Positions 13,183 to 27,001 of a DNA stretch of 64,000 bases are shown piece by piece (positions within the stretch are counted from its first letter, which is position 1; each line of letters begins with the position of its first letter). Location: positions 2,671 to 66,670 of the forward strand of contig JAFPYS010000004.1 of the NCBI GenBank assembly GCA_017412085.1. The letters are read 5' to 3'. Under the pieces are notes generated by a model. That model saw only the letters and a list, made by a program, of their open reading frames with translations, searched no databases and was not told the origin of the DNA. The stretch is from Alphaproteobacteria bacterium (lineage in GTDB: Bacteria; Pseudomonadota; Alphaproteobacteria; CAAHEQ01; UBA3637). The position numbers and the translations under genes are program-made.

Positions 13183-13431
13183 TTAATCTTTTTTTTGAAC
13201 AAAAAGATTGCAATGGCAATGGCCCATTTCAGCAATCTCACGTTCATGTTCACCACACGGACAGTAACCACGTGATGGTTCGCACGGACAATGCCCATCA
13301 CAAGCGGTTAAACAGCGATTAATAATTTTGTCAGCAAAGGGGGAAAGTTCCCATCCTTTTGCTTTTGCATACAGCTCTACAGCGTGTTTAAAGTGTTCGT
13401 TATCCATATTCTTCCTTTCTACATACCCCAA
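13183..13431 (-). CDS. ferredoxin-thioredoxin reductase catalytic-subunit-like small Cys-rich protein
   Basis: HCPCEPSRGYCPCGEHEREIAEMGHCHCNLF resembles the FTR CPC..CPC..CHCxLF signature, but with non-canonical spacings. N-terminal ELYAKAKGW also resembles the family. Confidence 0.55.
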   Translation of the reverse strand: MGYVERKNMDNEHFKHAVELYAKAKGWELSPFADKIINRCLTACDGHCPCEPSRGYCPCGEHEREIAEMGHCHCNLFVQKKD

Positions 13432-14036
13432 AATTCAACAATAACAATTTGAATCATTGCCATGATAAATCCAGCAAAGATACCAGCGGTGACATCGTCC
13501 ATCATCACACCCATCGGTGTCTTCTTCCGATCCCAAAAGGCAACGGCTCCAAATTTAAAAATATCAAAGAAGCGGAACAGCAAGAAGCCCACCAACAACA
13601 TAGGACCATGCATCAATTCCGGCAACACCACCACAAACGGAATCATTTGACCGACAACTTCATCGATAATAACACAGGAAGGATCTTTTTCCGTTTTATC
13701 TTGAGTAAATTGTTGTACAGCCAACAAGCCCAATAAAAACAAAATAAAAATGGTAAACCATAAAAAAGGTGCCGATAAATAGCTGAGCAAGTAAACAACA
13801 GGCAATGCCACCAATGATCCGATGGTACCGGGACCCTTTGGAAAGTAGCCAAGAGGACCAAGCGTTGCAATGTGCCAAGAACCAACACTTAAAGAAAAAT
13901 TGTTTTTCTTTTTGGGTGCCGCAGGAGCCTTGTTGGAGACCACAGGAGCCTTGGAAACAACCACTTTCTTTGCTGCCGACTTTTTGGAGGGAGTTGCTTT
14001 TTTAGCAGCTTTTTTCTTTTTTGTTTTCTTTGCCAT
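13419..14036 (-). CDS. pgpA: phosphatidylglycerophosphatase A with Lys/Ala/Pro-rich N-terminal extension
   Basis: GPGTIGSLVALP and IIDEVVGQ motifs. The first ~50 aa read MAKKTKKKKAAKKATPSKKSAAKK... and contain no internal ATG. Confidence 0.8.
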   Translation of the reverse strand: MAKKTKKKKAAKKATPSKKSAAKKVVVSKAPVVSNKAPAAPKKKNNFSLSVGSWHIATLGPLGYFPKGPGTIGSLVALPVVYLLSYLSAPFLWFTIFILFLLGLLAVQQFTQDKTEKDPSCVIIDEVVGQMIPFVVVLPELMHGPMLLVGFLLFRFFDIFKFGAVAFWDRKKTPMGVMMDDVTAGIFAGFIMAMIQIVIVEFWGM

Positions 14037-14047
14037 TCAACTTTCTC

Positions 14048-15073
14048 CTACTCTGTTGTTTGATCTAATTCATCGTTCAAGGCCGGATCGTCAGGGAACA
14101 AGCTAAAATTATCTTTTAATAACTGATGCAATTCTTTGACGTCTGGCATGCTTTCATTTTTATATTGTACTAAAGTAATTTGATTTTGCAACAAATAATC
14201 TTGAACTTGTTGATAATTTTGTATTGAGCCACGAATCATAACGAGTGTGGGCAAAATTTCAGCGGATGGCTCCATTTTCTTTAAAGCCTCACGTTGGGTA
14301 AGCAGGGCCGCACAGGGTTGCATGGAGGCGCCCGTTTCATCTGTCCATGTGCAGGCCTCAATTGGTTGGGTTGTGTCCACAGTCCATGTATGAGGTTCGC
14401 TGAACAATTTACACAAAACGGCCACATCATCGGACGAGTAAACCAAATCAATAATTTTACCTTCTAAGGCCACATGTTTAAAAGCCATCATATCTAGGTC
14501 GGGATCAATATCCGCCAGAGTGTTAATGTCTTGCTCTTTAGATGATTTGTTGGTGGCGGGGTCAACCGGTGGAACAGGTGCCGCGGGAGACGGAGCGCCC
14601 CCCTCGGGGGGCTTGACACTCAGAATAGCATTGTTTTGAACATTCATGCGTATAGGAGGGGCTATCTTTGGTCTTTGTCCGGGAACGGGTGCCGGTGTTG
14701 GCGCGGTCCCAGTTGCCACAGGTTCGGTGGGCGCTGGCGTTTCGGCGACAGCGTTTTCAACCGTCGGTGTGGCTTCGGTTTGTTGAGGTATGGCCGCGGG
14801 GGACATTGGTGCGGAAGAAGTTTGAACGGGCGTGGTGGCCTCAGGAATTTGTGAGCGGTTAAAAAAATGTTTCATGATTTTACTCCATATTTGTAGCCAA
14901 TAGGCCGTTAAAAAACCAACAACAAATACAATATATACGGTGACATTGTTCCAACGAATGCGCTTGCCAGAAAAATAGCATAACGCCCATAACACGGCAA
15001 CTTCAATGGCTATGCCGGCTAAAAGTATTAATCCTCGTTTTACAATAAACACGTTTTTCCCCCCTAAGCGCAT
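14048..15073 (-). CDS. hypothetical membrane protein (2 TM, Pro/Ala/Thr-rich linker, C-terminal globular domain)
   Basis: TM segments at the N-terminus. Linker TTPVQTSSAPMSPAAIPQQTEATP...PSPAAPVPPVDP. The C-terminal ~170 aa are unassigned apart from a weak IDLVYSSDDVAVLCK pattern. Confidence 0.5.
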   Translation of the reverse strand: MRLGGKNVFIVKRGLILLAGIAIEVAVLWALCYFSGKRIRWNNVTVYIVFVVGFLTAYWLQIWSKIMKHFFNRSQIPEATTPVQTSSAPMSPAAIPQQTEATPTVENAVAETPAPTEPVATGTAPTPAPVPGQRPKIAPPIRMNVQNNAILSVKPPEGGAPSPAAPVPPVDPATNKSSKEQDINTLADIDPDLDMMAFKHVALEGKIIDLVYSSDDVAVLCKLFSEPHTWTVDTTQPIEACTWTDETGASMQPCAALLTQREALKKMEPSAEILPTLVMIRGSIQNYQQVQDYLLQNQITLVQYKNESMPDVKELHQLLKDNFSLFPDDPALNDELDQTTE

Positions 15074-15075
15074 GG

Positions 15076-16434
15076 TTAAATTGTCATGCGGATACGATCA
15101 GCAGTCATCACGGCTTGTAAATCATTTGGCCCTGTGCCGCTTATAAAACGATCGGTAAGTGGCGTTCTTACTGTAGCGCTCTCCCCGTTAAAGTCATTTT
15201 TCATGTCTGTATAAACAGCGTTCCATTGGCTATGCATCGTGGATTTTTTGCCATCAATCAAGACATTTGGTCCATCCAGGCCTTGCACCACATGGGATTG
15301 GGTAAGCTTGTATGTGTGTGTTGTGGGATCAAGCTCTTCTTGCGAGATAACGGCGGAACCAGATTCCATAAAATAGGTAATGGCGGTAATCTTGTCCCCA
15401 TTTTTATGGTAACGTGTCATCGTTTTGTTTTCTTTATTGACAATTTTTCCGCCTGGGACAGCAGTATGCGCACTCAATTCTGCCTCTGCGTCCGTCAGCA
15501 TGGTCGCTGCGGTGCTTGTCATTTGAGATAGACGTTCAAGTTCTGCTTCATGTTGAGCACCCTTTTCTGTGGCGGATGCCAACATGGTTTTTTCCATGTT
15601 ACCAATAAAACGTGCAAGAACTTCAAGAGGAAGACTCATGCAACGTTTGGCTATTTCCACCGCACATTTTTCGGGATCACTAGAGGCGGCAATGACGGCT
15701 TCCAAGCTGTCGCCATATACCTTTTGCCAAGAAGCCCACATGTCGTCTGGAATGTTGGAAACAACGTCGGCCAAAATACTTTTATGTGTTGAGAAGAAGG
15801 CCTTAATGGCGGCTTTATATGGGCGATTTTCACGTTCCAACTTTTCCATAATGTTTGTAAGACCATCTCGGTTGTTGTGGCCAAAGATAAGAATAGCCCG
15901 TCTTGGCCCACCAGTATGATCTTCTGGATCCACTGCTGGATCCAAGGTTACAGCCCAGTCCCTAACATCAGACAAAATCTTGTTTTTCAATGCGTCAGGA
16001 AGTGAATCATAAGGATACTCTATCTGATCGGGCTTAAGGGTCCAGTTTTTGATGTTTTCATGACGATTGTAATGGTCCACAAGTGTTTTGTTGCACACAT
16101 CGCTATTTTCAGCCAAGTCGTTTAAAAGCTCTCTTAATTCTTCGCGTTGTTGTTTGCTTACGGGATGAGGATGACCCGGCAGAGGAATGAACTTGTCCCA
16201 CGCACCTGCGGCCTCCTTGGACACAAATCTTGTCCATACCTGTTCGGCCGCTGCTTCAAATTTGCTTCGATTTCCCGGGATCCGAAGACTTGCATCGTTA
16301 AAGAGATCTATGAACTCTTGAGCGGAAATTGTCGTAAAATCTGCAGTTGCGAAATCTACCATTTGAAACTCCTTTTGTAAGGTATTAGTTCGTATATACT
16401 CATAGGATACCATAACTTTTTCTTTTGTCAACAA
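15076..16434 (-). CDS. hypothetical soluble protein, no signal peptide
   Basis: 452-aa ORF only 2 nt upstream of the next gene, divergent from the CWxC gene triplet. No motif recognised. Start uncertain among several in-frame Met codons. Confidence 0.5.
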   Translation of the reverse strand: MLTKEKVMVSYEYIRTNTLQKEFQMVDFATADFTTISAQEFIDLFNDASLRIPGNRSKFEAAAEQVWTRFVSKEAAGAWDKFIPLPGHPHPVSKQQREELRELLNDLAENSDVCNKTLVDHYNRHENIKNWTLKPDQIEYPYDSLPDALKNKILSDVRDWAVTLDPAVDPEDHTGGPRRAILIFGHNNRDGLTNIMEKLERENRPYKAAIKAFFSTHKSILADVVSNIPDDMWASWQKVYGDSLEAVIAASSDPEKCAVEIAKRCMSLPLEVLARFIGNMEKTMLASATEKGAQHEAELERLSQMTSTAATMLTDAEAELSAHTAVPGGKIVNKENKTMTRYHKNGDKITAITYFMESGSAVISQEELDPTTHTYKLTQSHVVQGLDGPNVLIDGKKSTMHSQWNAVYTDMKNDFNGESATVRTPLTDRFISGTGPNDLQAVMTADRIRMTI

Positions 16435-16520: not shown

Positions 16521-18554
16521 ATGAAGAAGATTTTACTGGCTGTTTTATTGATGTTCAGCGTGATGATGCCAACGCGGCCTGCCCATGCTGTTGCAGGGCT
16601 GGATACGGCATGGTCCATTATAAAGGGCGTGGGATCTGTTTTAGAATCTGCCGGTGGTTTGATTGTGGATGCCGTTGAAATGGCCGGATGCAGCTTGTAT
16701 ATAGGCTCATCATGTGCCAAGCAATCGTCACAATTTACACAAAGATTGCGTTCATACACGGAAGATAGTTGCTGGTTTTGTGGTATTTTGGGCGATGTTT
16801 TTGATATTATGAACGATATTGTGACCGAGATGTGCGGCAATCTGCAATCGGTGTTTTTGACGATGTTGGGGTTGTGCATGCTGTTTTGGTTGTTGTTCCG
16901 CGTTGGTCGGGTGGTGATAAACTTTATGCCAGAGCCAGATACAGCTTTTGTGCCTGATTTATTGAAACAAATCCTGCGCGTGATTGTGGCGACATTGTTG
17001 ATTGTCAATTATACGGCCGTTTTTGATTATATTGTCAGCCCGTTGTTGCAGTTTAGTCTTGGCCTTGGAAACCAAATTACGGGGCAAGAATTAACTGGAT
17101 ATGTGTTAGAGGCCAAATTGGATAGCCAAGAGGGAGAATCTATACAGGATAGTGCTGTTTTAAGTGCGCAAAGTAGTTTATGTCCCCAATTGGATGCGTT
17201 ATTAAAAAATTCGGACGATGCTCAGAATGGCAAAGCATACAATGAAACAACAAAGGAGTCTTTTTTGTGTTATGTTCGATTCGGTAGTGCGGCTATGATG
17301 ACGGGTATGGCCATTGGATCAACGGCGATCCATGCTTGGGGCGCGATGGGGATATTTGAAAAGTTGGGTCACATGCAATTGCCGATTATTGGATTGGAAA
17401 TTTTCTTGGCCTTCTTTGCGTTATTTCTTGCCTTCCCGTTAAAGTTATTTGATCCGTTGGTGAATTTGGCATTTGTATCGTCTATGTTCCCATTATGGGT
17501 GGTGTTGTGGGCGTTCCCATTTGGTAAGGATTATGTTAAAAAAGCGTTGGATATGTTTGCCAGTGTGATTGTGCATTTAATTGTGATTTCCATTATGACT
17601 GTTATTGTGATTAACGTTATGGATAGCGCTTTGGGCAGCAAAGCAGATCGTGAGCAATTGTTCCAACGCTTACTAAACAATGACAATGTGGCGGATGTTT
17701 TTGAAGGGACAGGTAAGACAGGATTAAGCGTTGCTATCGGTATGTTCGGACTTGTTGGAAAGGCTACCTTGATGACTTTTGCATTAGGTTATTTTTCGGT
17801 GAAGCTTTTCATGAAAACTAAAGATATTGCAAACAGCTTTAAAGGCGGTATCAACTTTGGTGCGAATGAAACGGCCACCGAGATGTTGGGGACGCAAACC
17901 AAGCCTGGGACAAAATTGGGTGCGAATGTTGTATCTGCTGCGTGGCATCGTGTTGCTCCCGATAAGGACAGTCTTACACAATCTACACGTTCCAACACAA
18001 AGTTGGGCAAGTTTACGCGTGGCATGATGTGGGCGGCGGGTGGTCCGGTGGGTGCTATGTTTGCTATGCGGCGTGCCCCAACAGAAACCGGAAATACACT
18101 TGGTGAAACACTCGGCACAACATGGCTTGGGCGTGCGGTTAATAAGATGCGTGGGCGAAATCTTTTTGCTAAAGAGGAAGATCCAACAACAAAGTCCAAG
18201 TATTATTTGAATGGAGCCAATGGTGTTGGTGTCAGAAAGGATAAAGATGGCAAGATTACGAAGTATGACTTCAATACGCACGATTACCAAGAGATGGATA
18301 AGAAGGGTGAAGTGATGAAATATAATGTCAATACAGGTAAAGTAACGTTGAATGGTACTGATTATCTGTTGGATGCAACAACCGGTGCGATGACAGATTT
18401 GGCTGGAAAAGCGGTGGTCGATCCAGATGTTTTGATGAAAGCTAGAAATCTCAAAGCGCGTGCAGAAGGTACTGCCGGTGACGGCAGAAGAGGTTGGCAT
18501 GATTTTGAAGACCGGTTTAGGGTTAAAGGTTGGACACGTTGGACTGGGCCATAA
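16521..18554 (+). CDS. CWxC polytopic membrane protein, paralog 1 (VirB6/TrbL-like topology is a hypothesis)
   Basis: RBS AAGGGGG before the ATG at 16521. Signal peptide ..PTRPAHA/VA. SCWFCGILGDVFDIMNDIV..LFWLLFRVGRVVINFMPEPD, then multiple TMs. Basic C-terminal tail with KLGKFTRG and YD-like repeats. Confidence 0.6.
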   Translation: MKKILLAVLLMFSVMMPTRPAHAVAGLDTAWSIIKGVGSVLESAGGLIVDAVEMAGCSLYIGSSCAKQSSQFTQRLRSYTEDSCWFCGILGDVFDIMNDIVTEMCGNLQSVFLTMLGLCMLFWLLFRVGRVVINFMPEPDTAFVPDLLKQILRVIVATLLIVNYTAVFDYIVSPLLQFSLGLGNQITGQELTGYVLEAKLDSQEGESIQDSAVLSAQSSLCPQLDALLKNSDDAQNGKAYNETTKESFLCYVRFGSAAMMTGMAIGSTAIHAWGAMGIFEKLGHMQLPIIGLEIFLAFFALFLAFPLKLFDPLVNLAFVSSMFPLWVVLWAFPFGKDYVKKALDMFASVIVHLIVISIMTVIVINVMDSALGSKADREQLFQRLLNNDNVADVFEGTGKTGLSVAIGMFGLVGKATLMTFALGYFSVKLFMKTKDIANSFKGGINFGANETATEMLGTQTKPGTKLGANVVSAAWHRVAPDKDSLTQSTRSNTKLGKFTRGMMWAAGGPVGAMFAMRRAPTETGNTLGETLGTTWLGRAVNKMRGRNLFAKEEDPTTKSKYYLNGANGVGVRKDKDGKITKYDFNTHDYQEMDKKGEVMKYNVNTGKVTLNGTDYLLDATTGAMTDLAGKAVVDPDVLMKARNLKARAEGTAGDGRRGWHDFEDRFRVKGWTRWTGP

Positions 18555-18571
18555 TGGGGTATTAACATTAC

Positions 18572-19900
18572 ATGAAAAACACGAATCTGAAGCGGTTTTT
18601 AGGGTGTTTTTTGGGAATAGCACTATGCTTATGTTTATGTGCTTGTAGCAGTGTTACATATGAAGATCCATCGGAATGGGAACCCACTATTTTAAATTGT
18701 TGGGTGTGTGCGATTTATGGGACAAGTTTTGAAATTTCTAATGATATTGTTTTTTCAGCCACAGCGGTTATGTTCCCTATTGCGCGGGTTATGTTGGGAA
18801 TTGGGTTGTTGTATATCTTATTGTTCCGTGTGGGTGCCATCACAATGCTGATGCCTGAAAACAAGATGGCGGGGCTGATGAAAGATACGGGTTTTATTTT
18901 TTTGAAAGCCATCTTTGTTGCGGTTTTATTGGCTAATGGAGATGCATTTTTGTTAGCGATACGAGATTACGTTGTCTATCCGCTGGGGAACTTCTTTATG
19001 ATGATGGCGAATGCTGTGTTGGATTGTGTGCCGGGTTCGGGTAAGTATTTTTCCTCAATTGCAAAAATTACGCCTGAGGGTGTGGGAGATCCGCCGAATG
19101 TGATTAAAGGTGTTGTAGTAAGCATTGGGGGAGAAGTTGTTCCTATTGATCCAGATAGAACGATTTTTGGAGATTTAGGTATACAGGTTCAATACACGGT
19201 TTCGCGTATTTTTGTGTCATTAAAATCGGGGGCTTTTTTGGTGATGCAATTGTTGGCTCGTAAAGGAATTATGGCGTGGATTTTAGGACTGATAGCAGGA
19301 TGGCAAATGTTTAGTTTGATGGTGATATTCCCGTTGGCGTTTGTGGATGGCTTTATCATGTTGGCGTTTTATATTATTTTCTTGCCTTTCACGATCACGT
19401 TGTGGGTTTTCCCCGGTACAAAGGGTTATTTTAAAAGTATTATACCGAATATTTTATCACCCTTATTTCAGTTATTGTTCGGGTGTATAATTGTTGTGTT
19501 AATGGTTACTTTGATCCAGGTTTATGCTGATATGGGGTTAGATGGTATATTGCGGGATTCGGTTGGTGATGCGAACTCTAATGTGATTGATCAAGCTGAA
19601 AATGCAAAGCCCCCCATTATTATTATGGTAATGTTATTGATTGGAATCAGAAAAATGGCGTCTGAGGTGGGAGATTTTGCTCAATTATTTACGGGAACTA
19701 AAACAGATGCAACATTATTTGGATTGATAGATGCAGTAAAGAATGCGGCGAAGAAAGTGGCGGTGGCAGTAGCGGAGGTTGCTGCGGCTACGGCAACTGG
19801 TGGTGCAAGTGCGGCCGCATCTGTGGCAAGACGTGCGGCGATTGAGGCTGCCAAAAAAGCCGCTGAAGAGGCGGCAAGGGGTAGCGGAGGTGGTCCATGA
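18572..19900 (+). CDS. CWxC polytopic membrane protein, paralog 2 (possible lipoprotein)
   Basis: LCLCLCAC/SS is lipobox-like. NCWVCAIYGTSFEISNDIV..LLYILLFRVGAITMLMPENK, then multiple TMs. Ala-rich C-terminal tail. Confidence 0.6.
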   Translation: MKNTNLKRFLGCFLGIALCLCLCACSSVTYEDPSEWEPTILNCWVCAIYGTSFEISNDIVFSATAVMFPIARVMLGIGLLYILLFRVGAITMLMPENKMAGLMKDTGFIFLKAIFVAVLLANGDAFLLAIRDYVVYPLGNFFMMMANAVLDCVPGSGKYFSSIAKITPEGVGDPPNVIKGVVVSIGGEVVPIDPDRTIFGDLGIQVQYTVSRIFVSLKSGAFLVMQLLARKGIMAWILGLIAGWQMFSLMVIFPLAFVDGFIMLAFYIIFLPFTITLWVFPGTKGYFKSIIPNILSPLFQLLFGCIIVVLMVTLIQVYADMGLDGILRDSVGDANSNVIDQAENAKPPIIIMVMLLIGIRKMASEVGDFAQLFTGTKTDATLFGLIDAVKNAAKKVAVAVAEVAAATATGGASAAASVARRAAIEAAKKAAEEAARGSGGGP

Positions 19901-22323
19901 TATCTAAAATTAAGAAATATGCACTAAGAATTTTGATGATGCTTTGTGCCATAGGTATTATGTGGCTGTTATCGTTTATTCCCGTGGGCATTTTGAATGT
20001 GATTGCAGCGATTGTCTGGGGATTATGTATTTTAACAATGTTATATCTGTGTTTTTTATATTTGAAAAATGTCCGCAAAGCGATGGTTATTTTGCTTGCT
20101 TTTGTATTGACCAGTTCTGCATGGGCGGGAAGTCTTGAAGAATGCAATGTTTATGATCGTACTTCGCCTGAACAAGGTAACTTCTGTCGATATGAGCTTA
20201 TGTCTTCACAGTTGGGCGAACCCTTATGTAGGTATATCAGGACATTTGATCCCGTTAAGGTAAAACAAGGGGAAGCTGAACGCGAAATGCGTGAGTATGT
20301 GAATAATGCCAGCAAGGTTGTGCAAGGCTATAATATTTTGACCGAAGAATATCGGTCGGGGCTTGCGGATTCTTGTCATTTGGTAACAACAGAAGAGGAT
20401 CGACAGAAGAGTATAGAGGAAAGACGCCGCATTTTAAGTAATAATAATTCGGCTATTTGTTGCGCGTGGGCTATGGAATCTTTATTCCAAATATATAGCG
20501 CAACCAATGGCGAGCGTTTGATTGAAACGGTTCCGATGATGATGGCCAACGAGAAAATGCAATGTTGGCCGTGTGATGTGATTTACTTATTGATTACGTT
20601 GGCTAATACACTGGCGTACCGGTCTGCTCCAACAATGGCAGCCGTTGCTTTGTTCTTTTTAAAATGGTTCTTTATTTTTTGGATAGTTTTAAAAGTTGGG
20701 GCATTATTCTTGGGACGCAATTTTAATGGAAAAGCCTATAATGCATCTCAATTTATAAGGGAATTATTTGCCCGAGGTATATTGGTAATGCTTGCGGCGT
20801 TGATTTTGACAGATACGGCAGCTCAGCTAGATGATAAAACTGTGACAAATATGACGCAAATCAATGTAACACGACAAGAAACCTTTTTAGATAAAGCATA
20901 TCAAGAAGTGATTAATCCGCCATTTGAAATGATTGCGGGACTTGGTATTGAAATGGCGCGAGCACTGATTAATGGAGAGCAAAGTTTTTACGCCAATGTA
21001 GCTTCGGCGGCTGGGGTGTATGGCGTGGCAATGGAGCAAACAGATTATTGCTCTCAGCCAAAGGGATGTCGTGAAAAGGGAGATACGGGTTGTTGGTTAG
21101 GTGATAGCCCGATGTATCAATATGCAACAAGAGGAGGTGCTAGCGGCTCTGACTATATGTTGGATGTCACTTCACAAGGTCGAGCAATTGCGGATGGGAC
21201 GACGCGCTCTTTGTTATGCCTCACCCAGATGGCTTTTCAAGGATTGGCTCCTATTAGTGCGGCGGGATCTATTATTGCAACCTATTCAATTGTGAACAGT
21301 TTAACATTACCGTGGCCTTTAAATGGTGTTTTCCCAATGCTTCCTGAGTTATTATATGGTTTGTTGCTAATGATTCTTTGTTGGTTGTTGGGGGTTGCGG
21401 TGGCTTTTAGATTAATTGACATTATGATAAGAGTGGCGATGATGATTATGCTGTGTCCTATTTTTATCGTTGCAGCTGTCTTTCCGGCGACTAGAGATAA
21501 AGCGAAAATCGCGCTTATTTTTTTTGTTAGTGCGGTGATGGGGTTTGTAGAAGTGGCGTTAGCTGTTGGTGCAACTGTGCCATGTTTTTATCATGCAATT
21601 ACACGAAAAGGTAAAGAAAGGGAATTAATTGAAGCGATGGTCGCACCATCGTCGACTGAGTATGTGCCCAATTTATATGCACAATTTGCTCGTGATGGTG
21701 GATTTGTGGAAGATATGAAATTTTTCTTGTATATTTGTGTCGCTGCATGGATGGGAGTCAAATTATTAGAAAGTGTGGAAAAATTCTTTGAGCAGATTTT
21801 TGATCTTAATAATATTGGGCAAATTGGTGCGCCAAAGGATGCAAATGGCAATCCGACTGGGACAATGACAGCCGGCGCGACAAGTGTCCGCGCCTTTGTA
21901 GGCGATACGTTTGATAAGATGAAAGAAGTTCGAAAGAAGGGACGTATCCTTGCAAAAGGTTTTGCTCCAGGATTAGAAAAAACCAAATTGGGTCGGGGTT
22001 TGCAAAGTGCTAGCAGTTATACGGGAAGGAAGTATGTTGAAGGTAAAACGGCACTAAAAAACAGTCGTTTGGGCAGAGGTACAGCGGCGACGGCGCGGAA
22101 AGTTAGCACTGGTTATACTGCACTAAAAAATTTTGTAAGAAATAATCGTTTGACACGGGGAATTAAAACTTTGGCACAAAATACAAAGGTAGGACGGGCC
22201 GCCACATTCCTTGTGAATAATAAATTAACAAGGGGAATATGGAGAGTGGCGAAACAAGTGCCATCCCATGTTAAGGAACAAACCAAACAAAGTGTTCACG
22301 ATTTCTTCCATCCGCCGAAATAA
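19897..22323 (+). CDS. CWxC polytopic membrane protein, paralog 3
   Basis: ATGA overlap with paralog 2. QCWPCDVIYLLITLANTL..IFWIVLKVGALFLGRNFNGK, many TMs. C-terminal basic repeats KLGRG / RLGRG / RLTRG / KVGRA / KLTRG. Confidence 0.6.
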   Translation: MISKIKKYALRILMMLCAIGIMWLLSFIPVGILNVIAAIVWGLCILTMLYLCFLYLKNVRKAMVILLAFVLTSSAWAGSLEECNVYDRTSPEQGNFCRYELMSSQLGEPLCRYIRTFDPVKVKQGEAEREMREYVNNASKVVQGYNILTEEYRSGLADSCHLVTTEEDRQKSIEERRRILSNNNSAICCAWAMESLFQIYSATNGERLIETVPMMMANEKMQCWPCDVIYLLITLANTLAYRSAPTMAAVALFFLKWFFIFWIVLKVGALFLGRNFNGKAYNASQFIRELFARGILVMLAALILTDTAAQLDDKTVTNMTQINVTRQETFLDKAYQEVINPPFEMIAGLGIEMARALINGEQSFYANVASAAGVYGVAMEQTDYCSQPKGCREKGDTGCWLGDSPMYQYATRGGASGSDYMLDVTSQGRAIADGTTRSLLCLTQMAFQGLAPISAAGSIIATYSIVNSLTLPWPLNGVFPMLPELLYGLLLMILCWLLGVAVAFRLIDIMIRVAMMIMLCPIFIVAAVFPATRDKAKIALIFFVSAVMGFVEVALAVGATVPCFYHAITRKGKERELIEAMVAPSSTEYVPNLYAQFARDGGFVEDMKFFLYICVAAWMGVKLLESVEKFFEQIFDLNNIGQIGAPKDANGNPTGTMTAGATSVRAFVGDTFDKMKEVRKKGRILAKGFAPGLEKTKLGRGLQSASSYTGRKYVEGKTALKNSRLGRGTAATARKVSTGYTALKNFVRNNRLTRGIKTLAQNTKVGRAATFLVNNKLTRGIWRVAKQVPSHVKEQTKQSVHDFFHPPK

Positions 22324-22415: not shown

Positions 22416-23402
22416 ATGGAAGAAATTGTGTTCCCTAACCAAATTCGTATGATGCGGCGTGTTGCCGGTAAGTCTATGCAGGATATTGCTGATTTGTTGC
22501 ATTTAAGTATTTCCGCAATCAGCAAGATTGAAAAAGGGTATCGGCGTTTGAATGAAACACAGTTGCAACAGGTGGCCACTTTTGTGGATTGCCCAGTGAG
22601 TGCTCTTTTTGTGGCAGAAGGAACGGCCCAACCTGAGGTTATCCAGGCGTGGAAAGAAGAACAAGGTCGTCGCCACAAGATGAATGTGGGGGGCGGTTTG
22701 AAGACATTGGGTGCTGGTCTTCGCTATTTAAGAGGTCAGAAGAAGATTACCTTAGCCAATTTGGCGGCGGGAGCTCATATGACGTTGTCCGTTTACCATC
22801 GTATTGAGATGGGTCAAAGAGAGGTTGATGAAGTGGCATTTAATGCAATTGCTAGTGCCTTGGGAATGACAACAACCGATCTTCAAAAGAAAATTTATGA
22901 TTTAGATATGTCGGGTGCGTTGGAGGATTTAAAAAACAGCGAAACCCGCACGGGTGTAAATCTTTTTAAAGGTGGGTATAACGATTTGCCGATCAGCCGG
23001 CTGATGTTGCGCCGAGCGGAAGATCAAGAAGTGACAGTTCCTATTGAGGCTTTGCCAGGACAAGATGGAAAGCTCTATCGGGATAAAGCGCATTCTGTGG
23101 GGGCTGTTGTGTGCCCTTCCACTTTGGCAAATGATCCGGAATTGTATGCGGTTCGTTTGGGATCTCGTGAATCTTTTGCGGGCGTTTTGCCGCCAAGCGC
23201 GGTGTTGGTCGTTTCGCCTACGATGCCGTTGAGAGAGGGAGATTTAGCTGTGAAATTGAAATCAGAAAATGAAATTGAGATTGTGCGGGCACATAAAGAC
23301 GCTATTACAGGTTGGGAAATTTATTCTTTTGCAACGCAAGAAACGGAAAGGGTGTCTAATATAACATCGCTGCAAAGAGTTGTGTGGATTGCCTTGTTAT
23401 AA
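22416..23402 (+). CDS. dual-HTH XRE-family regulator with CI/LexA-like (S24-like, apparently degenerate) C-terminal domain
   Basis: Two HTH_3-like units: GKSMQDIADLLHLSISAISKIEKGYRRL and KITLANLAAGAHMTLSVYHRIEMGQREV. The C-terminus YAVRLGSRESFAGVLPPSAVLVVSP..REGDLAVKL..EIEIVR is like the CI autoproteolysis fold but lacks a clear Ser-Lys dyad. Confidence 0.65.
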   Translation: MEEIVFPNQIRMMRRVAGKSMQDIADLLHLSISAISKIEKGYRRLNETQLQQVATFVDCPVSALFVAEGTAQPEVIQAWKEEQGRRHKMNVGGGLKTLGAGLRYLRGQKKITLANLAAGAHMTLSVYHRIEMGQREVDEVAFNAIASALGMTTTDLQKKIYDLDMSGALEDLKNSETRTGVNLFKGGYNDLPISRLMLRRAEDQEVTVPIEALPGQDGKLYRDKAHSVGAVVCPSTLANDPELYAVRLGSRESFAGVLPPSAVLVVSPTMPLREGDLAVKLKSENEIEIVRAHKDAITGWEIYSFATQETERVSNITSLQRVVWIALL

Positions 23403-23414
23403 AAGGAGAAAAAA

Positions 23415-23984
23415 GTGGATAAAGAAACAACGGTACAGACAAAGTTTCACGACTTTTTAAAACAAAGGAACAGCAAGACCAATGTTGCCATGCAAAAGGC
23501 ACAAAAGTTGGTTAATTTGTACCGTGTCTTGAATGACTTTGGACCTGATTTTGTGACCGAATATAATGTCATGCTGAAGGAATGCTCTGAAGAAGTTCAA
23601 ACAGCTTTGCAGGCATTGGTGGGTGGACCAGAGGTTCGGCAATATTTGGAATTTTTAAAGTCGGAAGATCAAAAACAAGAAGACACAGAAAATTCTGCAT
23701 CCAATTCTCAACAGGCAGGATGGTTGCCGTCGCCCGCAGAGGAGCAAAAGGGAATGGAAACAAATGGGGAAATATCGTCGGATATGTGGAGTAATTTTGT
23801 GAAGGAACAAGACGCCAAGATAACGAAGATGATGGATGAATTTAGACAAGAGCAAAACGAAACCTTAACACGGCTGATGAATCAAGTAGCATCTAGTTTG
23901 CAAGCCAAAAAGGATGGTTCTGCGCCTGCGGTCCCCAAAACGGAGAAGCCTGAATATTTGGAAATTATTGAAGAGAAAAAGTAA
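23415..23984 (+). CDS. hypothetical protein (helical, acidic)
   Basis: GTG start with AAGGAG RBS, 12 nt after the regulator stop. No motif recognised. Confidence 0.5.
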   Translation: MDKETTVQTKFHDFLKQRNSKTNVAMQKAQKLVNLYRVLNDFGPDFVTEYNVMLKECSEEVQTALQALVGGPEVRQYLEFLKSEDQKQEDTENSASNSQQAGWLPSPAEEQKGMETNGEISSDMWSNFVKEQDAKITKMMDEFRQEQNETLTRLMNQVASSLQAKKDGSAPAVPKTEKPEYLEIIEEKK

Positions 23985-23993
23985 GGAGACACA

Positions 23994-25241
23994 ATGAATC
24001 TTGAGCGCATTTCTGAAGCATTACAAAGTTACACAGGGCAGGAAGATTCTATGCACGCTGTTACCGCCGTTCTGCAAGAAGAATTGGGGGATAATTGGAC
24101 GGAAACGGTTTTTGATGATCTTCAAGGGTTGGCACCAGCTTTGAAGGAAAATTTGACGCACGTTTTCAATTATTATGCGGCCACGATGGCGTGGAATGAA
24201 ATTCAAGGTTATTTGGCAGATCCAGATCTTCAAAACACGCCAGAATTACAAGAAAGATTGCCCGTTTTAAAACATTGGTTGGATTTCTTTGGTGCTCCTG
24301 GACAGGCGGCTTATCAGAGTCTTGAAGATCGATTGTCAGGGGAGGCTTTGCCATCAGAGAACGCTGATGGAACGGATGCGGCAGATGATAGTGAAGCAAA
24401 TGCTGGGGCTTCTGATTTGGAAGAGATGGCAAGTGAAGAGGATGAGAAAATTCCTTCAGCTGAGTCTGAAGAGACAAAAGAGGATTTACCTGTTGAAGAG
24501 ACTGAAATATCGGATCCAGTTGAAGCGTTGTCGAAAGAAGAAGACGTGCCGAACGTTGAAGAAACGACGGAAGAACCTGTGCCTGAAAATGATACGGCTC
24601 AGGCAGATGATTCTCCTGAGGCTTTTGAGATTTCAAAATTAAATACGCAGGTTGAGCTGTTAGATAAAAATCAGGCCTGGTTGGCGGCCAGATGTATTCA
24701 ATTAAAGGATATAGAAATTTATGCCTATCCATTTTATGGGTATATTGTGGATATGATGCGCCAAATTATAAAAAGCATGAATGCGATTTTGGAAAATGAG
24801 GCAGCAAAGAATCTTGTTGAAACGAAGTTTCCGGGAGGGATGACGGCCTTTGATAATAAAAAGCAAGCCATAGAGCATGATATTGCGTTGGCCGAGCAGA
24901 ATTGCGAATCGGCGACAACGGCTTTGATTTCCGAGGATATGGATATGGATGAAGTAAAACGTACTTTGGGAACAATTGATGACAGTGATACTGTTGAATA
25001 TGTGGGACCTGCACCAGATGGATTTGAATTGATTGATGATGAAACGCCGCTGGATGAAACAGCTATTAAAAAGCAATATGAAAAGTTGGAAAATATGGAT
25101 GCTTTAACGGGGGATAAAACAGAACAATCGTCTGAATCAAATGAGGCAGAAGAAAATACTTCACAAACACAACAAAAAGGTGTACAAAGAAAATTGTCCT
25201 TTTCATTAAAGCGTAAGAAACCAGCAGGGGGAACGAACTGA
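23994..25241 (+). CDS. hypothetical highly acidic protein
   Basis: 415 aa with a long D/E-rich centre (EEMASEEDEKIPSAESEETKEDLPVEETE..). RBS AAGGAG. Tightly packed in the operon. Confidence 0.5.
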   Translation: MNLERISEALQSYTGQEDSMHAVTAVLQEELGDNWTETVFDDLQGLAPALKENLTHVFNYYAATMAWNEIQGYLADPDLQNTPELQERLPVLKHWLDFFGAPGQAAYQSLEDRLSGEALPSENADGTDAADDSEANAGASDLEEMASEEDEKIPSAESEETKEDLPVEETEISDPVEALSKEEDVPNVEETTEEPVPENDTAQADDSPEAFEISKLNTQVELLDKNQAWLAARCIQLKDIEIYAYPFYGYIVDMMRQIIKSMNAILENEAAKNLVETKFPGGMTAFDNKKQAIEHDIALAEQNCESATTALISEDMDMDEVKRTLGTIDDSDTVEYVGPAPDGFELIDDETPLDETAIKKQYEKLENMDALTGDKTEQSSESNEAEENTSQTQQKGVQRKLSFSLKRKKPAGGTN

Positions 25242-25254
25242 TCAAAGGAGGCAC

Positions 25255-26397
25255 ATGAAGATACGGTATATTTTACAAGCAGCGATGGTAATTTGTATGT
25301 CTTGTCAAGTGATGGCGGATATTAATGTGCGCCGCGCTTCTCCAGCCGCGTATGTGGATCCTGAAATGCCATTTCGTTGTATGCTGCCCGGAACAGATAA
25401 GCAAGTTTCCAATACAATTGTGTTAACGCCAGATGATTTTTCGTTCATTTCATTGCAAAGTGGTGATATGTTGCCAAGATATGCGGTAAATGGTTATACT
25501 TTCCATAATAAGCCAATTGATGCGGTATTATCTGATTTATTAAAATCTGCGGGCATCAAAGTGCTTGCACCACAAACGGAATATACACTGTTGGATGGTA
25601 AGAATGTAAAGGGTGAGTTATCTTCCGTTGTTGAACAATTGGCTGATGCGGGTGAAATTTTTTACAGCTACAAAGAATCAACAAAGACGTTAACATTATT
25701 GCGTCGCACGGAATTTGCGTTAACTGTGCCCCAAAACAAGGTTGTTTTGTTGGCTGTGTTGGATGCGTTACGGGGAAGTGAGATTGAAAATTTGAATGTG
25801 GATTGGGAGAAATATCAAATTCGTATGAGCGTGTCTCCGGAAGAATTGCAAAAAGCCAAAAAAATAGTTCGTCAAATTTTGGATGATTCTTATCTTTTGG
25901 CGGCGGATATTGAGGGATATCAAGCGATTCCATATCAAAATTCAATCGCGTGGCAAGGGGTGTTAAACGAAAGCACCGGATTGTTGTCATCCATCGGACG
26001 CGCAATGGTTGGACGTCCCGTTGTTTTAAAGAGCAAGACAAGTGTGGATTCTTTTTTGGCGCGTGTTGAGAAGGCTTACCAGTTAACGCCTTTGGTGGCT
26101 GGACAGGCTGTCGTTCCAAATGGTTGGCAAATGCGCTTTAACGTCAATGAATGTGCAAACAACACATTGCCATATCCCAATATGTCGATTGTTATGAAAA
26201 CAAGAATTAAAGATCAATCCAGCGAACGGACACAGGTGACATTGGTCAGTGCTGGATCGACGGTGTCTTCTTTTGATGTCAGCAGCGCTTTGAATCAAGA
26301 AGTGGCGTTGATTGGCATCCCGACAAAAGTTGGTAATGCGGAATTGATGTTTACGCTTAAGTTTAATTTAATACGTTTTATACAGAAAGGAGAATAA
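25255..26397 (+). CDS. secreted protein with possible STN/secretin-N0-like and NolW-like modules
   Basis: Signal peptide MKIRYILQAAMVICMSCQVMA/D. YTFHNKPIDAVLSDLLKSAGIKVL and LLAVLDALRGSEIENLNVDWEKYQIRMSV look like secretin N-domains. No canonical secretin C-domain seen. Low certainty. Confidence 0.45.
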   Translation: MKIRYILQAAMVICMSCQVMADINVRRASPAAYVDPEMPFRCMLPGTDKQVSNTIVLTPDDFSFISLQSGDMLPRYAVNGYTFHNKPIDAVLSDLLKSAGIKVLAPQTEYTLLDGKNVKGELSSVVEQLADAGEIFYSYKESTKTLTLLRRTEFALTVPQNKVVLLAVLDALRGSEIENLNVDWEKYQIRMSVSPEELQKAKKIVRQILDDSYLLAADIEGYQAIPYQNSIAWQGVLNESTGLLSSIGRAMVGRPVVLKSKTSVDSFLARVEKAYQLTPLVAGQAVVPNGWQMRFNVNECANNTLPYPNMSIVMKTRIKDQSSERTQVTLVSAGSTVSSFDVSSALNQEVALIGIPTKVGNAELMFTLKFNLIRFIQKGE

Positions 26398-26398
26398 T

Positions 26399-27001
26399 AT
26401 GACAGATTTTCAAGCTCCACCACCACCACCATCAAATGGTTTTGTGCCACCCCAACCGATGCCGGAACAACAGGCAGAACCTGTTGATACGTCTGTGCCA
26501 CCAGTTGCGCCCGCTCCAGTTGAAGAAGAACATCCTGAAGAAACCGTAGACAATGGGAATAATGCGGCGATAAATAAATTTGTAGCACAAAAGGAAATGT
26601 TGAAGGAACGGTTTAATGCTTTGCCAAGCGGCAAAAGAAATATTATTGTAGCCGCGGGTATATTTGTGGTCGGTTTATTGATGGGTGCCATTTTGTTTGG
26701 GGGTTCATCAGATGAGCCGGTTGTACAAGCCCCAAGAGGTTTGCAAGGAGTTGTATTAAACCCGGATATTAAAGAGAACGAGCAATTAAAACGGTGTGGA
26801 CAGGTAGATCCATCTAGCCCATGTGTTTTATACATTATGAATAGCTATACGTATGATAAAATGGCTAAGGATTTCTTTGAAACGGCCGTTGCTGTGACGC
26901 GCCGAAAAGATTTGGTTATCCAAATGGATAATGTGCGTTATGCTCAAATGCGTATCCCACCAGGTTATTTCGCACAAATCAAAATTCCGGCTTATAAGTA
27001 A
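26399..27001 (+). CDS. bitopic membrane protein with Pro-rich N-terminus
   Basis: Starts 1 nt after the upstream stop. MTDFQAPPPPPSNGFVPPQP.., a single TM IIVAAGIFVVGLLMGAILFGG, and a ~100-aa C-terminal domain. Confidence 0.5.
   Translation: MTDFQAPPPPPSNGFVPPQPMPEQQAEPVDTSVPPVAPAPVEEEHPEETVDNGNNAAINKFVAQKEMLKERFNALPSGKRNIIVAAGIFVVGLLMGAILFGGSSDEPVVQAPRGLQGVVLNPDIKENEQLKRCGQVDPSSPCVLYIMNSYTYDKMAKDFFETAVAVTRRKDLVIQMDNVRYAQMRIPPGYFAQIKIPAYK

What the first reader, a model, noticed from the sequence alone, without database searches (positions are those of the whole stretch)
16521..22323. Three tandem paralogous polytopic membrane proteins sharing a CWxC-helix-LFRVG module, with no secretion ATPase nearby
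Three consecutive genes encode 677, 442 and 808 aa, separated by an 18-nt gap and then an ATGA overlap. Each product begins with a signal peptide or lipobox. Each then shows the same module: SCWFC..NDIV..LFWLLFRVGRVV, NCWVC..NDIV..LLYILLFRVGAIT, and QCWPC..ANTL..IFWIVLKVGALF. Many TM helices and a divergent cytoplasmic tail follow. The tails are basic with KLGRG / RLTRG repeats in paralogs 1 and 3, and Ala-rich in paralog 2. Tandem arrays of large VirB6/TrbL-like proteins are known from Rickettsiales type IV systems, and the periplasmic-loop-then-TM layout is compatible with that. However, no VirB4/VirB11/VirD4, VirB8-10 or pilin gene is present in this window, and I do not recognise the CWxC motif from VirB6. 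This could be a diverged orphan VirB6 array or a distinct, undescribed envelope complex. The paired Cys suggest a periplasmic disulfide or thiol-redox element.
Basis: partly seen in the sequence, partly recalled or inferred. Interest (0 to 1): 0.7.

Follow-up and report, generated by a model that had tools for sequence, protein, structure and literature searches.

The report
CWxC VirB6-like trio beside a hidden secretin
Three neighbouring membrane-protein genes are divergent relatives of the VirB6 core subunit of type IV secretion machines, belong to a large unannotated family marked by a Cys-Trp-x-Cys motif, and usually sit beside a previously unrecognised small outer-membrane secretin, which hints at an undescribed envelope-spanning apparatus in uncultured gut Alphaproteobacteria.

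Summary
Three tandem genes (677, 442 and 808 aa) are true paralogs and share an invariant CWxC at the start of the helix that becomes the first membrane anchor. They belong to the VirB6/TrbL superfamily. Paralog 3 hits Pfam TrbL just below cut-off, many orthologs hit it, and an AlphaFold model of paralog 2 matches only TrwI/VirB6 of the R388 T4SS. The archetypal Agrobacterium VirB6 has no CxxC. An exhaustive search found about 1500 cluster representatives; 126 of the 138 best carry CWxC. All named members are "hypothetical proteins" from uncultured Alphaproteobacteria. The window (64 kb of housekeeping genes) has no T4SS ATPase, and none lies within 10 kb of the array in 13 lineages. In 14 of 18 lineages the array adjoins a conserved module: a double-HTH regulator, two acidic cytosolic proteins, a 380-aa protein whose model matches secretins (BfpB, PilQ, InvG, GspD, pIV), and a bitopic protein. 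The two modules are separable. My best reading is that VirB6-type stalk subunits work with a secretin conduit. The main rival is a dispersed Rickettsiales-like T4SS. I rate it a new variant of a known kind, and potentially more.

The parts
16521..18554 (+). Paralog 1 (677 aa). It has a signal peptide, a periplasmic N-terminal segment, CWFC (C84-C87), the VirB6-like hydrophobic core, and a basic tail of about 240 aa.
   Evidence: Six of its 15 orthologs hit Pfam TrbL.
18572..19900 (+). Paralog 2 (442 aa). It has a lipobox-type signal, CWVC (C43-C46), a minimal VirB6-like core, and an Ala-rich helical tail.
   Evidence: The AlphaFold model has pLDDT 80.4 and pTM 0.72. The top 9 PDB fold hits are all TrwI/VirB6.
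19897..22323 (+). Paralog 3 (808 aa). It has two extra N-terminal TM helices plus a signal-like segment, a Cys-rich periplasmic domain of about 145 aa, CWPC (C223-C226), the VirB6-like core with a long periplasmic insert, and a basic tail with 5 [KR][LV][GT]R[GA] repeats.
   Evidence: Pfam TrbL gives E=7e-5 and 23.1 bits. Six of 9 relatives carry PF04610.
16770..16781 (+). CWFC codons of paralog 1.
18698..18709 (+). CWVC codons of paralog 2. In the model they lie at the N-terminal cap of helix 44-91.
20563..20574 (+). CWPC codons of paralog 3.
22416..23402 (+). Double XRE-type HTH protein (328 aa). It is the most conserved gene of the block and always lies directly downstream of the array when the partner module is present.
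   Evidence: Pfam HTH_3 twice. It is 83-88% identical in loci where the VirB6 paralogs are 30-45% identical.
23415..23984 (+). Acidic cytosolic protein (189 aa) of unknown fold. It is co-conserved with the module.
23994..25241 (+). Strongly acidic cytosolic protein (415 aa; 94 D+E against 31 K+R) with a disordered linker. It is co-conserved with the module.
25255..26397 (+). Small secretin-like outer-membrane protein (380 aa, with a signal peptide).
   Evidence: The AlphaFold model has pLDDT 78.9 and pTM 0.69. Foldseek against the PDB gives BfpB at E=4.5e-10, followed by PilQ, InvG, ExeD/GspD/PulD and pIV, with separate hits to N0-N1 structures and to secretin cores. Phage f1 pIV appears in the viral library. 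There is no Pfam or NCBIfam hit, apart from one weak Secretin_N hit among the pooled partner-gene sequences.
26399..27001 (+). Bitopic protein (200 aa). It has a Pro-rich cytosolic N-terminus, one TM helix, and a periplasmic domain of about 95 aa with 2 conserved Cys. It starts 1 nt after the secretin gene and is a candidate connector between the inner membrane and the secretin.
   Evidence: The connector role is inference only.
15076..16434 (-). Divergently transcribed cytosolic protein (452 aa). This slot is hypervariable, and no ortholog was found in any other locus.
14048..15073 (-). Membrane-anchored protein (341 aa) with a Pro-rich linker. It is conserved upstream of the array in most lineages.

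Best explanation
The three genes encode paralogous 'extended' members of the VirB6/TrbL superfamily. VirB6 is the polytopic subunit that forms a pentameric stalk and proto-channel in type IV secretion systems, rising from the inner membrane into the periplasm. These three proteins belong to a large, previously unannotated subfamily defined by a CWxC motif at the N-terminal cap of the first helix, on the periplasmic face of the inner membrane. This much is shown: the paralogy, the VirB6 fold and motif, the conservation of CWxC, and the family's size and restriction to uncultured Alphaproteobacteria. The next steps are inferred. After signal-peptide or lipobox processing, the N-terminus stays in the periplasm. 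The two Cys form a disulfide, structural or redox-switchable, that caps and rigidifies helix 1. A second conserved Cys pair (C221 and C250 in paralog 1) staples the large periplasmic loop. The three paralogs assemble into homo- or hetero-pentameric stalks, and their basic or Ala-rich tails face the cytoplasm. My preferred system-level reading, also inferred, is that these stalks work with the module immediately downstream. In that module the 380-aa secretin-fold protein would provide the outer-membrane conduit in place of a VirB7/9/10 core complex. The 200-aa bitopic protein would link the inner membrane to the secretin. The two acidic cytosolic proteins would act as adaptors, chaperones or cargo, and the double-HTH protein would regulate the locus. 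The energising ATPase is not encoded in the locus.
For: Paralogy. The TrbL/VirB6 link by sequence: P3 E=7e-5, 6 of 15 P1 orthologs, 6 of 9 P3 relatives, and 29 of 64 wider members with a best E of 4e-9. An hhalign profile aligns collinearly with A. fabrum VirB6 over 256 columns, and the family motif FPxTRD matches VirB6 FDRTRD. The link by fold: the P2 model has pLDDT 80, and the only credible PDB matches are 9 TrwI/VirB6 chains at probability 0.97-1.0, while all other hits are at 0.13 or less. CWxC is invariant in 41 of 41 orthologs and present in 126 of 138 representatives, and it sits at the start of helix 44-91 of the model. The family has 1532 representatives at E<=1e-3, and all named ones are hypothetical proteins of Alphaproteobacteria or Pseudomonadota MAGs. 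The secretin fold of the 380-aa gene. The array and the module are adjacent on the same strand in 11 of 13 lineages found from the VirB6 side and in 3 of 5 found from the secretin side. This holds down to about 23% identity between VirB6 paralogs and with different outer flanks. The locus has the same GC content as its surroundings and lies in a housekeeping context with no integrase or plasmid genes.
Against: No ATPase (no Walker A motif, no VirB4, VirB11, VirD4, GspE or PilB Pfam hit) lies in the block or within about 10 kb in any locus. The two modules are separable. L015 and L017 have arrays without the module, and L027 and L030/L033 have the module without arrays. Adjacency could therefore reflect lineage synteny. 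The window proteins themselves fall below the Pfam gathering score, and P2 has no hit at all. The secretin assignment rests on a model built from an 11-sequence alignment, and the global TM-scores are low (0.15-0.31), as expected for a multi-domain monomer model. No sequence profile confirms it. The residue next to the essential VirB6 Trp197 is Leu, Ile and Leu in the three window proteins. No disulfide geometry, oligomer or protein-protein contact was computed.
Confidence: 0.45

Rival explanations
1. The array belongs to a dispersed, Rickettsiales-like (rvh-type) T4SS. On this reading the three proteins are the VirB6 paralog set of a canonical T4SS whose VirB3/4, VirB8-11 and VirD4 genes lie in other chromosomal islands. 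The neighbouring secretin module is an unrelated system, such as a pilus or T2SS remnant, that happens to be syntenic.
For: Rickettsiales carry tandem arrays of 4-5 extended VirB6 proteins with signal peptides or lipoboxes and hydrophilic extensions, and their T4SS genes are scattered (PMC7648143; PMC2653234). The window encodes candidate host-interaction proteins: an NleD/M91-like peptidase, a Sel1-repeat protein and a weak ART hit. The array and the secretin module occur apart in 4 of 18 lineages. One module-only locus has a 711-aa protein with a prepilin-like N-terminus nearby.
Against: In Rickettsiales the virB6 array follows virB3-virB4. Here no VirB3/4 is adjacent in any of 13 lineages. 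No T4SS gene lies in 64 kb of this genome. The module follows the array on the same strand across very deep divergence and with changing outer flanks. The rest of the genomes could not be inspected, so this rival is untested and not excluded.
Confidence: 0.35
2. The proteins are membrane thiol-redox or envelope-homeostasis proteins that reuse a VirB6 scaffold. On this reading the CWxC at the membrane-periplasm interface is a catalytic redox pair, like the CxxC of DsbB or VKOR, and the proteins do not transport anything.
For: The CxxC sits at a helix N-terminus at the periplasmic face and is absolutely conserved. A second conserved Cys pair lies in the periplasmic loop. Further CxxC motifs occur in P3-type members. 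No ATPase is encoded nearby.
Against: The fold matches VirB6 and not a DsbB or VKOR four-helix bundle. No thioredoxin-like partner is encoded in the block. Three to five paralogs with long variable tails are not expected for an oxidoreductase. A conserved periplasmic CxxC is explained equally well by a structural disulfide.
Confidence: 0.08
3. The array is a decaying remnant of an integrated conjugative element or plasmid T4SS with no current function.
For: The array has no partner T4SS genes nearby, and the VirB6 paralogs evolve faster than their neighbours.
Against: The reading frames are intact, and the motif columns are invariant across hundreds of cluster representatives. The array occupies a fixed place in the core genome, and the GC content equals that of the surroundings. 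No integrase or relaxase is adjacent. There are no relatives in 72,556 plasmids.
Confidence: 0.02

Closest known systems
VirB6/TrbL family (PF04610); solved example TrwI of plasmid R388 (PDB 7O3V, 8RT9), archetype A. tumefaciens VirB6
   Same: The helical fold is the same. The alignment with VirB6 is collinear, and the conserved FPxTRD/FDRTRD motif lies in the TMS-cytoplasmic region. The N-terminus faces the periplasm, and two N-proximal anchoring helices are followed by further hydrophobic helices and a large periplasmic loop.
   Different: The CWxC motif is absent from A. fabrum VirB6. These proteins have a cleavable signal or lipobox plus N-terminal periplasmic extensions and long cytosolic tails. 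There are three paralogs in tandem. No VirB2-5 or VirB7-11 neighbours are present. The Trp equivalent to W197 is not kept in the three window proteins.
Extended VirB6 paralog arrays of Rickettsiales (RvhB6a-e of Rickettsia; VirB6-1 to -4 of Anaplasma and Ehrlichia)
   Same: Both are tandem arrays of 3-5 large VirB6-like proteins in Alphaproteobacteria. Both have a signal peptide or lipobox and hydrophilic N- or C-terminal extensions of unknown role (PMC7648143, PMC2653234, PMC12857230).
   Different: The Rickettsiales arrays lie directly downstream of virB3-virB4 and belong to a recognised T4SS. Here no T4SS gene is nearby. The neighbours are instead a double-HTH regulator, two acidic proteins, a secretin-fold protein and a bitopic protein. 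No CWxC motif is described for the Rickettsiales proteins. Direct sequence comparison with RvhB6 could not be run.
Secretins (BfpB, PilQ, GspD/PulD, InvG, phage pIV; PF00263) with their inner-membrane connectors (GspC, PilP, BfpG)
   Same: The 380-aa neighbour matches both the N0/N1 domains and the secretin core by fold. A bitopic protein gene follows it, as GspC- or PilP-type partners do.
   Different: At 380 aa it is very small and is not detected by Pfam or NCBIfam secretin models. No GspE/PilB ATPase, GspF/PilC platform protein, prepilin peptidase or pilin is present in the locus. It is instead coupled to VirB6-like genes, a pairing not mentioned in a 2025 T4SS review, where the word 'secretin' occurs 0 times (PMC12857230).
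DotA/IcmX of the Legionella Dot/Icm type IVB system
   Same: DotA is a large extended VirB6-type pentamer that forms a central channel (PMC12857230). The type IVB outer complex also contains a secretin-N0-like domain, in DotD; that point is from my own knowledge.
   Different: No Dot/Icm components were detected. The 380-aa protein here matches full secretins, not just an N0 domain.

Membership tests
VirB6/TrbL (PF04610) | A match to the Pfam TrbL profile at or above the gathering score | tested here: inconclusive
   P3 scores 23.1 bits against a cut-off of 25.9 (E=7e-5). P1 scores 11.3 bits, and P2 has no hit. However, 6 of 15 P1 orthologs, 6 of 9 P3 relatives and 29 of 64 wider members hit TrbL, with a best E of 4e-9.
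VirB6/TrbL (PF04610) | The fold of a solved VirB6 (TrwI of R388) | tested here: met
   The P2 model (pLDDT 80.4) has its 9 best PDB hits all on TrwI/VirB6, at probability 0.97-1.0 and target TM-score 0.40-0.65. The next hits have probability 0.13 or less.
VirB6/TrbL (PF04610) | The conserved TMS-cytoplasmic motif, including the essential Trp (W197 of A. tumefaciens VirB6) | tested here: inconclusive
   FPxT[RK]D aligns with VirB6 FDRTRD. The column one residue away from W197 is Trp in 84 of 169 family members and Phe in 31, but it is Leu, Ile and Leu in the window's P1, P2 and P3.
VirB6/TrbL (PF04610) | A periplasmic N-terminus, N-proximal membrane anchors, five or more hydrophobic helices and a large periplasmic loop | tested here: met
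   This is supported by hydropathy and the AlphaFold secondary structure. A signal peptide or lipobox precedes the core. The topology is predicted, not measured.
VirB6/TrbL (PF04610) | Genetic linkage to VirB4 and other mating-pair-formation genes | tested here: not met
   None was found in the 64-kb window or within about 10 kb in 13 lineages.
VirB6/TrbL (PF04610) | Pentameric stalk assembly with a VirB5-type cap | not testable with these tools
   No multimer prediction was available, and no VirB5-like gene was recognised.
Rickettsiales extended VirB6 (Rvh) arrays | A tandem array of large paralogs with a signal peptide or lipobox and hydrophilic extensions | tested here: met
   The comparison draws on PMC7648143.
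Rickettsiales extended VirB6 (Rvh) arrays | A position downstream of virB3-virB4 within a dispersed rvh T4SS | tested here: not met
   Upstream of the array are divergently transcribed unknown genes and pgpA in every lineage.
Rickettsiales extended VirB6 (Rvh) arrays | Closer sequence relationship to RvhB6 than to other VirB6 clades | not tested
Secretin (PF00263), for the 380-aa neighbour | A match to a secretin or Secretin_N sequence profile | tested here: not met
   There is no Pfam or NCBIfam hit. Only one weak Secretin_N hit (E=0.015) appeared among the pooled partner-gene sequences. PDB profile searches were empty.
Secretin (PF00263), for the 380-aa neighbour | N0/N1 ring domains plus the secretin beta-core fold | tested here: met
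   Foldseek gives BfpB at 4.5e-10, then PilQ, InvG, ExeD, GspD, PulD, pIV and RcpA. N-domain-only entries (3ezj, 5ngi, 3gr5, 4ar0) and core-only entries (7ofh, 6dv6, 6ve4) are both hit. Phage f1 pIV is hit in the viral library.
Secretin (PF00263), for the 380-aa neighbour | A 12-15-mer outer-membrane channel | not testable with these tools
   No multimer prediction was available.
DsbB/VKOR-type membrane thiol oxidoreductases | A four-helix-bundle fold with a quinone site next to the CxxC | tested here: not met
   The fold search returns VirB6 and no DsbB or VKOR entry. Only the position of the CxxC at a membrane-proximal helix cap is similar.

The most novel reading that the evidence does not exclude
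The array and the downstream module together encode an undescribed kind of trans-envelope machine. In it, VirB6-type pentameric stalks anchored in the inner membrane and stapled by periplasmic CWxC disulfides dock beneath a minimal secretin instead of a VirB7/9/10 core complex. This would be a hybrid between the type IV and the secretin-based (T2SS, T3SS, T4P) architectures. It would be fixed in the core genome of a broad clade of uncultured, host-associated Alphaproteobacteria, with no dedicated ATPase in the locus.
Probability: 0.3. Interest if true: 0.9.

Novelty: new variant of a known kind. Interest (0 to 1): 0.68.

Why it matters
VirB6 is the least understood conserved T4SS subunit, and the role of 'extended' VirB6 proteins is an acknowledged open question (PMC12857230). 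This finding defines a large subfamily, about 1500 clusters at 50% identity, that is entirely unannotated. It has a sharp and testable signature: a periplasmic CWxC at the cap of helix 1. It lies outside any recognisable T4SS locus. It is also usually paired with a cryptic mini-secretin that current profile libraries miss. If the two modules work together, this would be the first secretin-coupled VirB6 apparatus, and it would blur the boundary between major secretion-system classes. If they do not, the family still extends the Rickettsiales-style VirB6 paralog expansion to gut and rumen Alphaproteobacteria. It also gives annotation pipelines two new protein families to recognise.

Tried and rejected
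- **NCBIfam.** The search gave nothing for the three paralogs or for the partner genes.
- **PDB sequence searches.** Single sequences and family profiles gave nothing for the VirB6-like proteins. Profile A5 returned only low-complexity tail noise. The 380-aa and 200-aa partners had no credible hits. The HTH protein matched only generic XRE domains.
- **Plasmids.** tblastn of the P1 core against 72,556 plasmids found no match, so this is not a plasmid-type VirB6.
- **Genome-collection scan.** It found only 4 loci, all unnamed Alphaproteobacteria MAGs, so the taxonomy could not be refined.
- **Promoter and terminator scan.** The counts were at background level, so operon structure is inferred only from gene spacing.
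- **Pooled Pfam scan of 46 partner-gene orthologs.** It gave no recurrent family.
- **Walker A search.** It was negative in all block proteins.
- **Structure prediction with locus-derived rows.** I solved this by registering the orthologs through an exact cluster look-up.
- **R388 record.** It is not in the plasmid collection, so I used A. fabrum VirB6 instead.
- **Distant (25% identity) secretin relatives, L034-L036.** They lie among FtsA, FtsQ and Lol-like genes and were uninformative.
- **Prepilin-signal search.** It found a candidate only in L030/L033 and none in the window.
- **Prophage or ICE origin.** I rejected this because there is no integrase, the GC content matches the surroundings, and the locus occupies a fixed place among housekeeping genes.
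- **Literature searches.** Searches for VirB6 with secretin, for orphan VirB6, and for gut Alphaproteobacteria T4SS found no description of this system.

Full report
**Observation.** Genes 2 and 3 overlap by ATGA. Genes 1 and 2 are 17 nt apart, not 18. The ATG at 16521 has a good Shine-Dalgarno sequence and matches the N-termini of the orthologs. All the quoted motifs are present.

The proteins are true paralogs. P1-P2 gives E=2e-15 over 334 residues and P1-P3 gives 1e-7. P2-P3 is only marginal when compared directly (0.014), but the two are linked through P1. In a joint alignment of 21 and then 42 sequences from the three ortholog groups, C-W-x-C, an Asn, a Gly and two Pro are invariant or nearly so.

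Two minor corrections apply. P3 has two extra TM helices before its signal-like segment. The KLGRG/RLTRG-type repeat occurs five times in P3 but only once in P1.

**Source organism.** The window carries a permuted alpha-type tmRNA, so it comes from an alphaproteobacterium with about 41% GC. The region around the block holds ordinary housekeeping genes: RNase E, BacA, AmiC, HisS, CorA, PriA, XerC/D, QueA, UvrC, PgsA-type, and MATE and MFS transporters. The GC content of the block equals that of its surroundings.

**What the three proteins are.** By sequence, P3 hits Pfam TrbL/VirB6 at E=7e-5, 2.8 bits below the gathering score. P1 hits only faintly, and P2 does not hit at all. The link becomes solid at the family level. 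Six of 15 P1 orthologs, 6 of 9 P3 relatives and 29 of 64 more distant members hit TrbL, with a best E of 4e-9.

An AlphaFold2 model of P2, built on a 42-sequence alignment of all three groups, reached pLDDT 80.4 and pTM 0.72. Its nine best PDB matches are all TrwI/VirB6 chains of the R388 T4SS stalk, at probability 0.97-1.0, whereas every other hit has probability 0.13 or less.

A 169-sequence family profile aligns collinearly with A. fabrum VirB6 over 256 columns (core 24-361 against VirB6 14-274, pairwise E=0.029). The strongest signal is the family motif FPxT[RK]D against VirB6 FDRTRD(187-192). This is the TMS-cytoplasmic region that the literature describes as the only conserved part of VirB6 (PMC2653234). 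The essential Trp197 has a Trp one column away in 84 of 169 family members. In the three window proteins that position is Leu, Ile and Leu.

**The CWxC motif.** A. fabrum VirB6 has a single Cys and no CxxC. The profile alignment puts CWxC at about the very N-terminus of canonical VirB6. In the P2 model, CWVC (residues 43-46) sits at the N-terminal cap of a 48-residue helix (44-91), whose distal half is the first membrane anchor (LFWLLFRVG-type). All three proteins carry a signal peptide, a lipobox or a signal-like third helix upstream. The motif should therefore face the periplasm at the membrane surface.

A second Cys pair (C221 and C250 of P1) is invariant in the P1 orthologs and common across the family. 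It lies in the large loop between hydrophobic helices 2 and 3. P3-type members carry further CxxC motifs. The simplest reading is that these Cys form periplasmic disulfides that staple helix 1 and the loop. A redox-switch role cannot be excluded. A DsbB/VKOR-like catalytic role is unlikely because the fold is VirB6.

**Size and distribution of the family.** Word-indexed searches found only 9-18 relatives per paralog. An exhaustive HMMER search of 1.84 billion cluster representatives with the core profile found 1532 proteins at E<=1e-3, 970 at E<=1e-10 and 171 at E<=1e-30. Of the 138 new sequences among the listed top hits, 126 contain CW.C, and 78 of those are CWFC. Most of the remainder have CLFC, CFFC or CLIC, or are fragments.

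Every member that carries a source name is a 'hypothetical protein' from a MAG labelled Alphaproteobacteria or Pseudomonadota bacterium. Where a source is stated, it is goat abomasum or a human-gut SGB. There are no relatives in 72,556 plasmids.

**Genomic context.** From the VirB6 side I examined 13 distinct lineages: the window, L001, L004, L005, L008, L009, L011, L013, L015, L016, L017, L018 and L019. Arrays contain three VirB6-like genes. L013 has about five genes of that size, and L015 has four. No locus has a VirB4, VirB8-11, VirD4 or any other secretion ATPase within about 10 kb, and no protein of the block has a Walker A motif.

In 11 of the 13 lineages, the same five genes follow the array on the same strand:
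- a 328-aa protein with two XRE-type HTH domains;
- a 175-385-aa acidic protein;
- a 300-700-aa very acidic protein;
- a 380-450-aa secreted protein;
- a roughly 200-aa bitopic protein.

The outer flanks change between lineages: RimI/TsaB in most, GltX in L016, AmiC in L013. Upstream lie a conserved membrane-anchored protein (the 341-aa gene in the window) and a hypervariable cytosolic protein. The window's 452-aa version of the latter has no ortholog in any other locus.

The HTH protein is 83-88% identical between loci whose VirB6 paralogs are only 30-45% identical. The VirB6-like proteins are therefore the fast-evolving part of the block.

**The 380-aa neighbour is a secretin by fold.** No sequence profile recognises it. 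I registered its orthologs by exact look-up, which allowed an 11-sequence alignment, and the AlphaFold2 model reached pLDDT 78.9 and pTM 0.69.

Foldseek against the PDB returned the type IVb pilus secretin BfpB (E=4.5e-10, probability 1.0). It was followed by PilQ, InvG, ExeD, GspD, PulD, phage pIV and RcpA, with 15 hits at E<=1e-3, nearly all of them secretins. N0-N1-only structures and secretin-core-only structures were hit independently. In the viral library, f1 pIV ranked third. Global TM-scores are low, as expected for a monomeric multi-domain model.

The gene that starts 1 nt downstream encodes a protein with a Pro-rich cytosolic N-terminus, one TM helix, and a conserved periplasmic domain of about 95 residues with two Cys. 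This is the topology of GspC-, PilP- and BfpG-type secretin connectors. Its fold could not be tested.

**Reciprocal test.** I also started from the secretin and scanned metagenome contigs. All close relatives keep the acidic protein upstream and the bitopic protein downstream, and they keep the HTH and g189 genes where the contig reaches that far. Three of five lineages with enough upstream sequence also have VirB6-like genes (L021, L028, L032). L027 and L030/L033 have housekeeping genes there instead.

Together with L015 and L017, which have arrays without the module, this shows two separable modules that are adjacent in 14 of 18 lineages. One module-only locus carries a 711-aa protein with a type IV prepilin-like N-terminus 3 kb upstream. 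No such protein was found in the window.

**Interpretation.** These points are shown: three paralogous members of the VirB6 superfamily; a new, large, unannotated subfamily marked by CWxC; no T4SS partners nearby; and a cryptic secretin-fold gene in a tightly co-conserved neighbouring module.

These points are inferred: the periplasmic disulfides; pentameric stalk formation, by analogy with TrwI and DotA (PMC12857230); cytosolic tails; and functional coupling of the stalks to the secretin through the bitopic protein.

A comprehensive 2025 T4SS review does not contain the word 'secretin'. Targeted literature searches found no description of a VirB6-secretin system.

The main rival is a dispersed Rickettsiales-type T4SS whose other islands lie outside what I could read. 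It is fully compatible with the VirB6 data and with the separability of the modules, and it could not be tested here.

**Verdict.** I classify the feature as a new variant of a known kind: a VirB6 family member with a new motif, a new domain arrangement and a new gene neighbourhood. There is a roughly 30% chance that the array and the module together constitute a new secretin-coupled VirB6 apparatus.

Noticed in passing
window 51443-52021 and 52042-53247 (+): UvrC is split into two ORFs. One is a 192-aa GIY-YIG part, and the other is a 401-aa UVR, RNase H-like and HhH part, 20 nt apart. This could be a real split gene, a frameshift or a sequencing error.
   Followed up: no
window 13183-13407 (-), next to pgpA (13419-14036): This is a conserved 74-aa Cys-rich protein with CPC...CPC...CHC motifs. 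From memory it resembles the catalytic chain of ferredoxin-thioredoxin reductase. It lies beside pgpA at the edge of the block in most lineages. Any link to the CWxC proteins is speculative.
   Followed up: partly
window 22416-23402 (+): The double XRE-HTH protein is 83-88% identical across lineages whose VirB6 paralogs share only 30-45% identity. It shows a weak architectural resemblance to the Wolbachia Wmk two-HTH proteins (NCBIfam E=4e-5). Such extreme conservation suggests a role beyond local regulation.
   Followed up: partly
window 9823-11322 (-), 45212-46129 (+), 47060-48046 (+), 54015-59372 (+): These are candidate host-interaction genes. They comprise a DUF6782/Peptidase_M91 (NleD-like) protein, a weak ART-PolyVal hit, a protein with 5 Sel1 repeats, and a 1785-aa ORF with no Pfam hit. 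They fit a host-associated lifestyle and possible secretion substrates.
   Followed up: no
window 15076-16434 (-) and the equivalent slot in L001, L004, L005, L011, L018 and L019: The gene divergently transcribed from the array is hypervariable, ranging from 378 to 736 aa, with no detectable similarity between most lineages. More distant lineages add a conserved gene of about 211 aa in this position (L009, L011, L015, L017, L018, L019).
   Followed up: partly
L013 9770-9991 and L012 566-751: A 61-73-aa protein with two TM helices is encoded immediately upstream of a VirB6-like gene. It resembles the two extra N-terminal TM helices fused to the window's P3 (residues 1-55). It could be a VirB3-like or pilin-like element, either split off or fused.
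   Followed up: no
L030 2057-4192 (identical in L033): This 711-aa protein has a type IV prepilin-like N-terminus (G|SIMVE followed by a hydrophobic helix). It lies 3 kb upstream of a secretin module that has no VirB6 array. It has no Pfam hit.
   Followed up: partly
L013 (contig ERZ27317164:k141_151756), 1934-20463: This is an expanded variant of the locus. It has about five genes of VirB6-like size. The g189 homolog is embedded in a 1065-aa highly acidic protein (277 D+E), and the bitopic protein is extended to 620 aa.
   Followed up: partly
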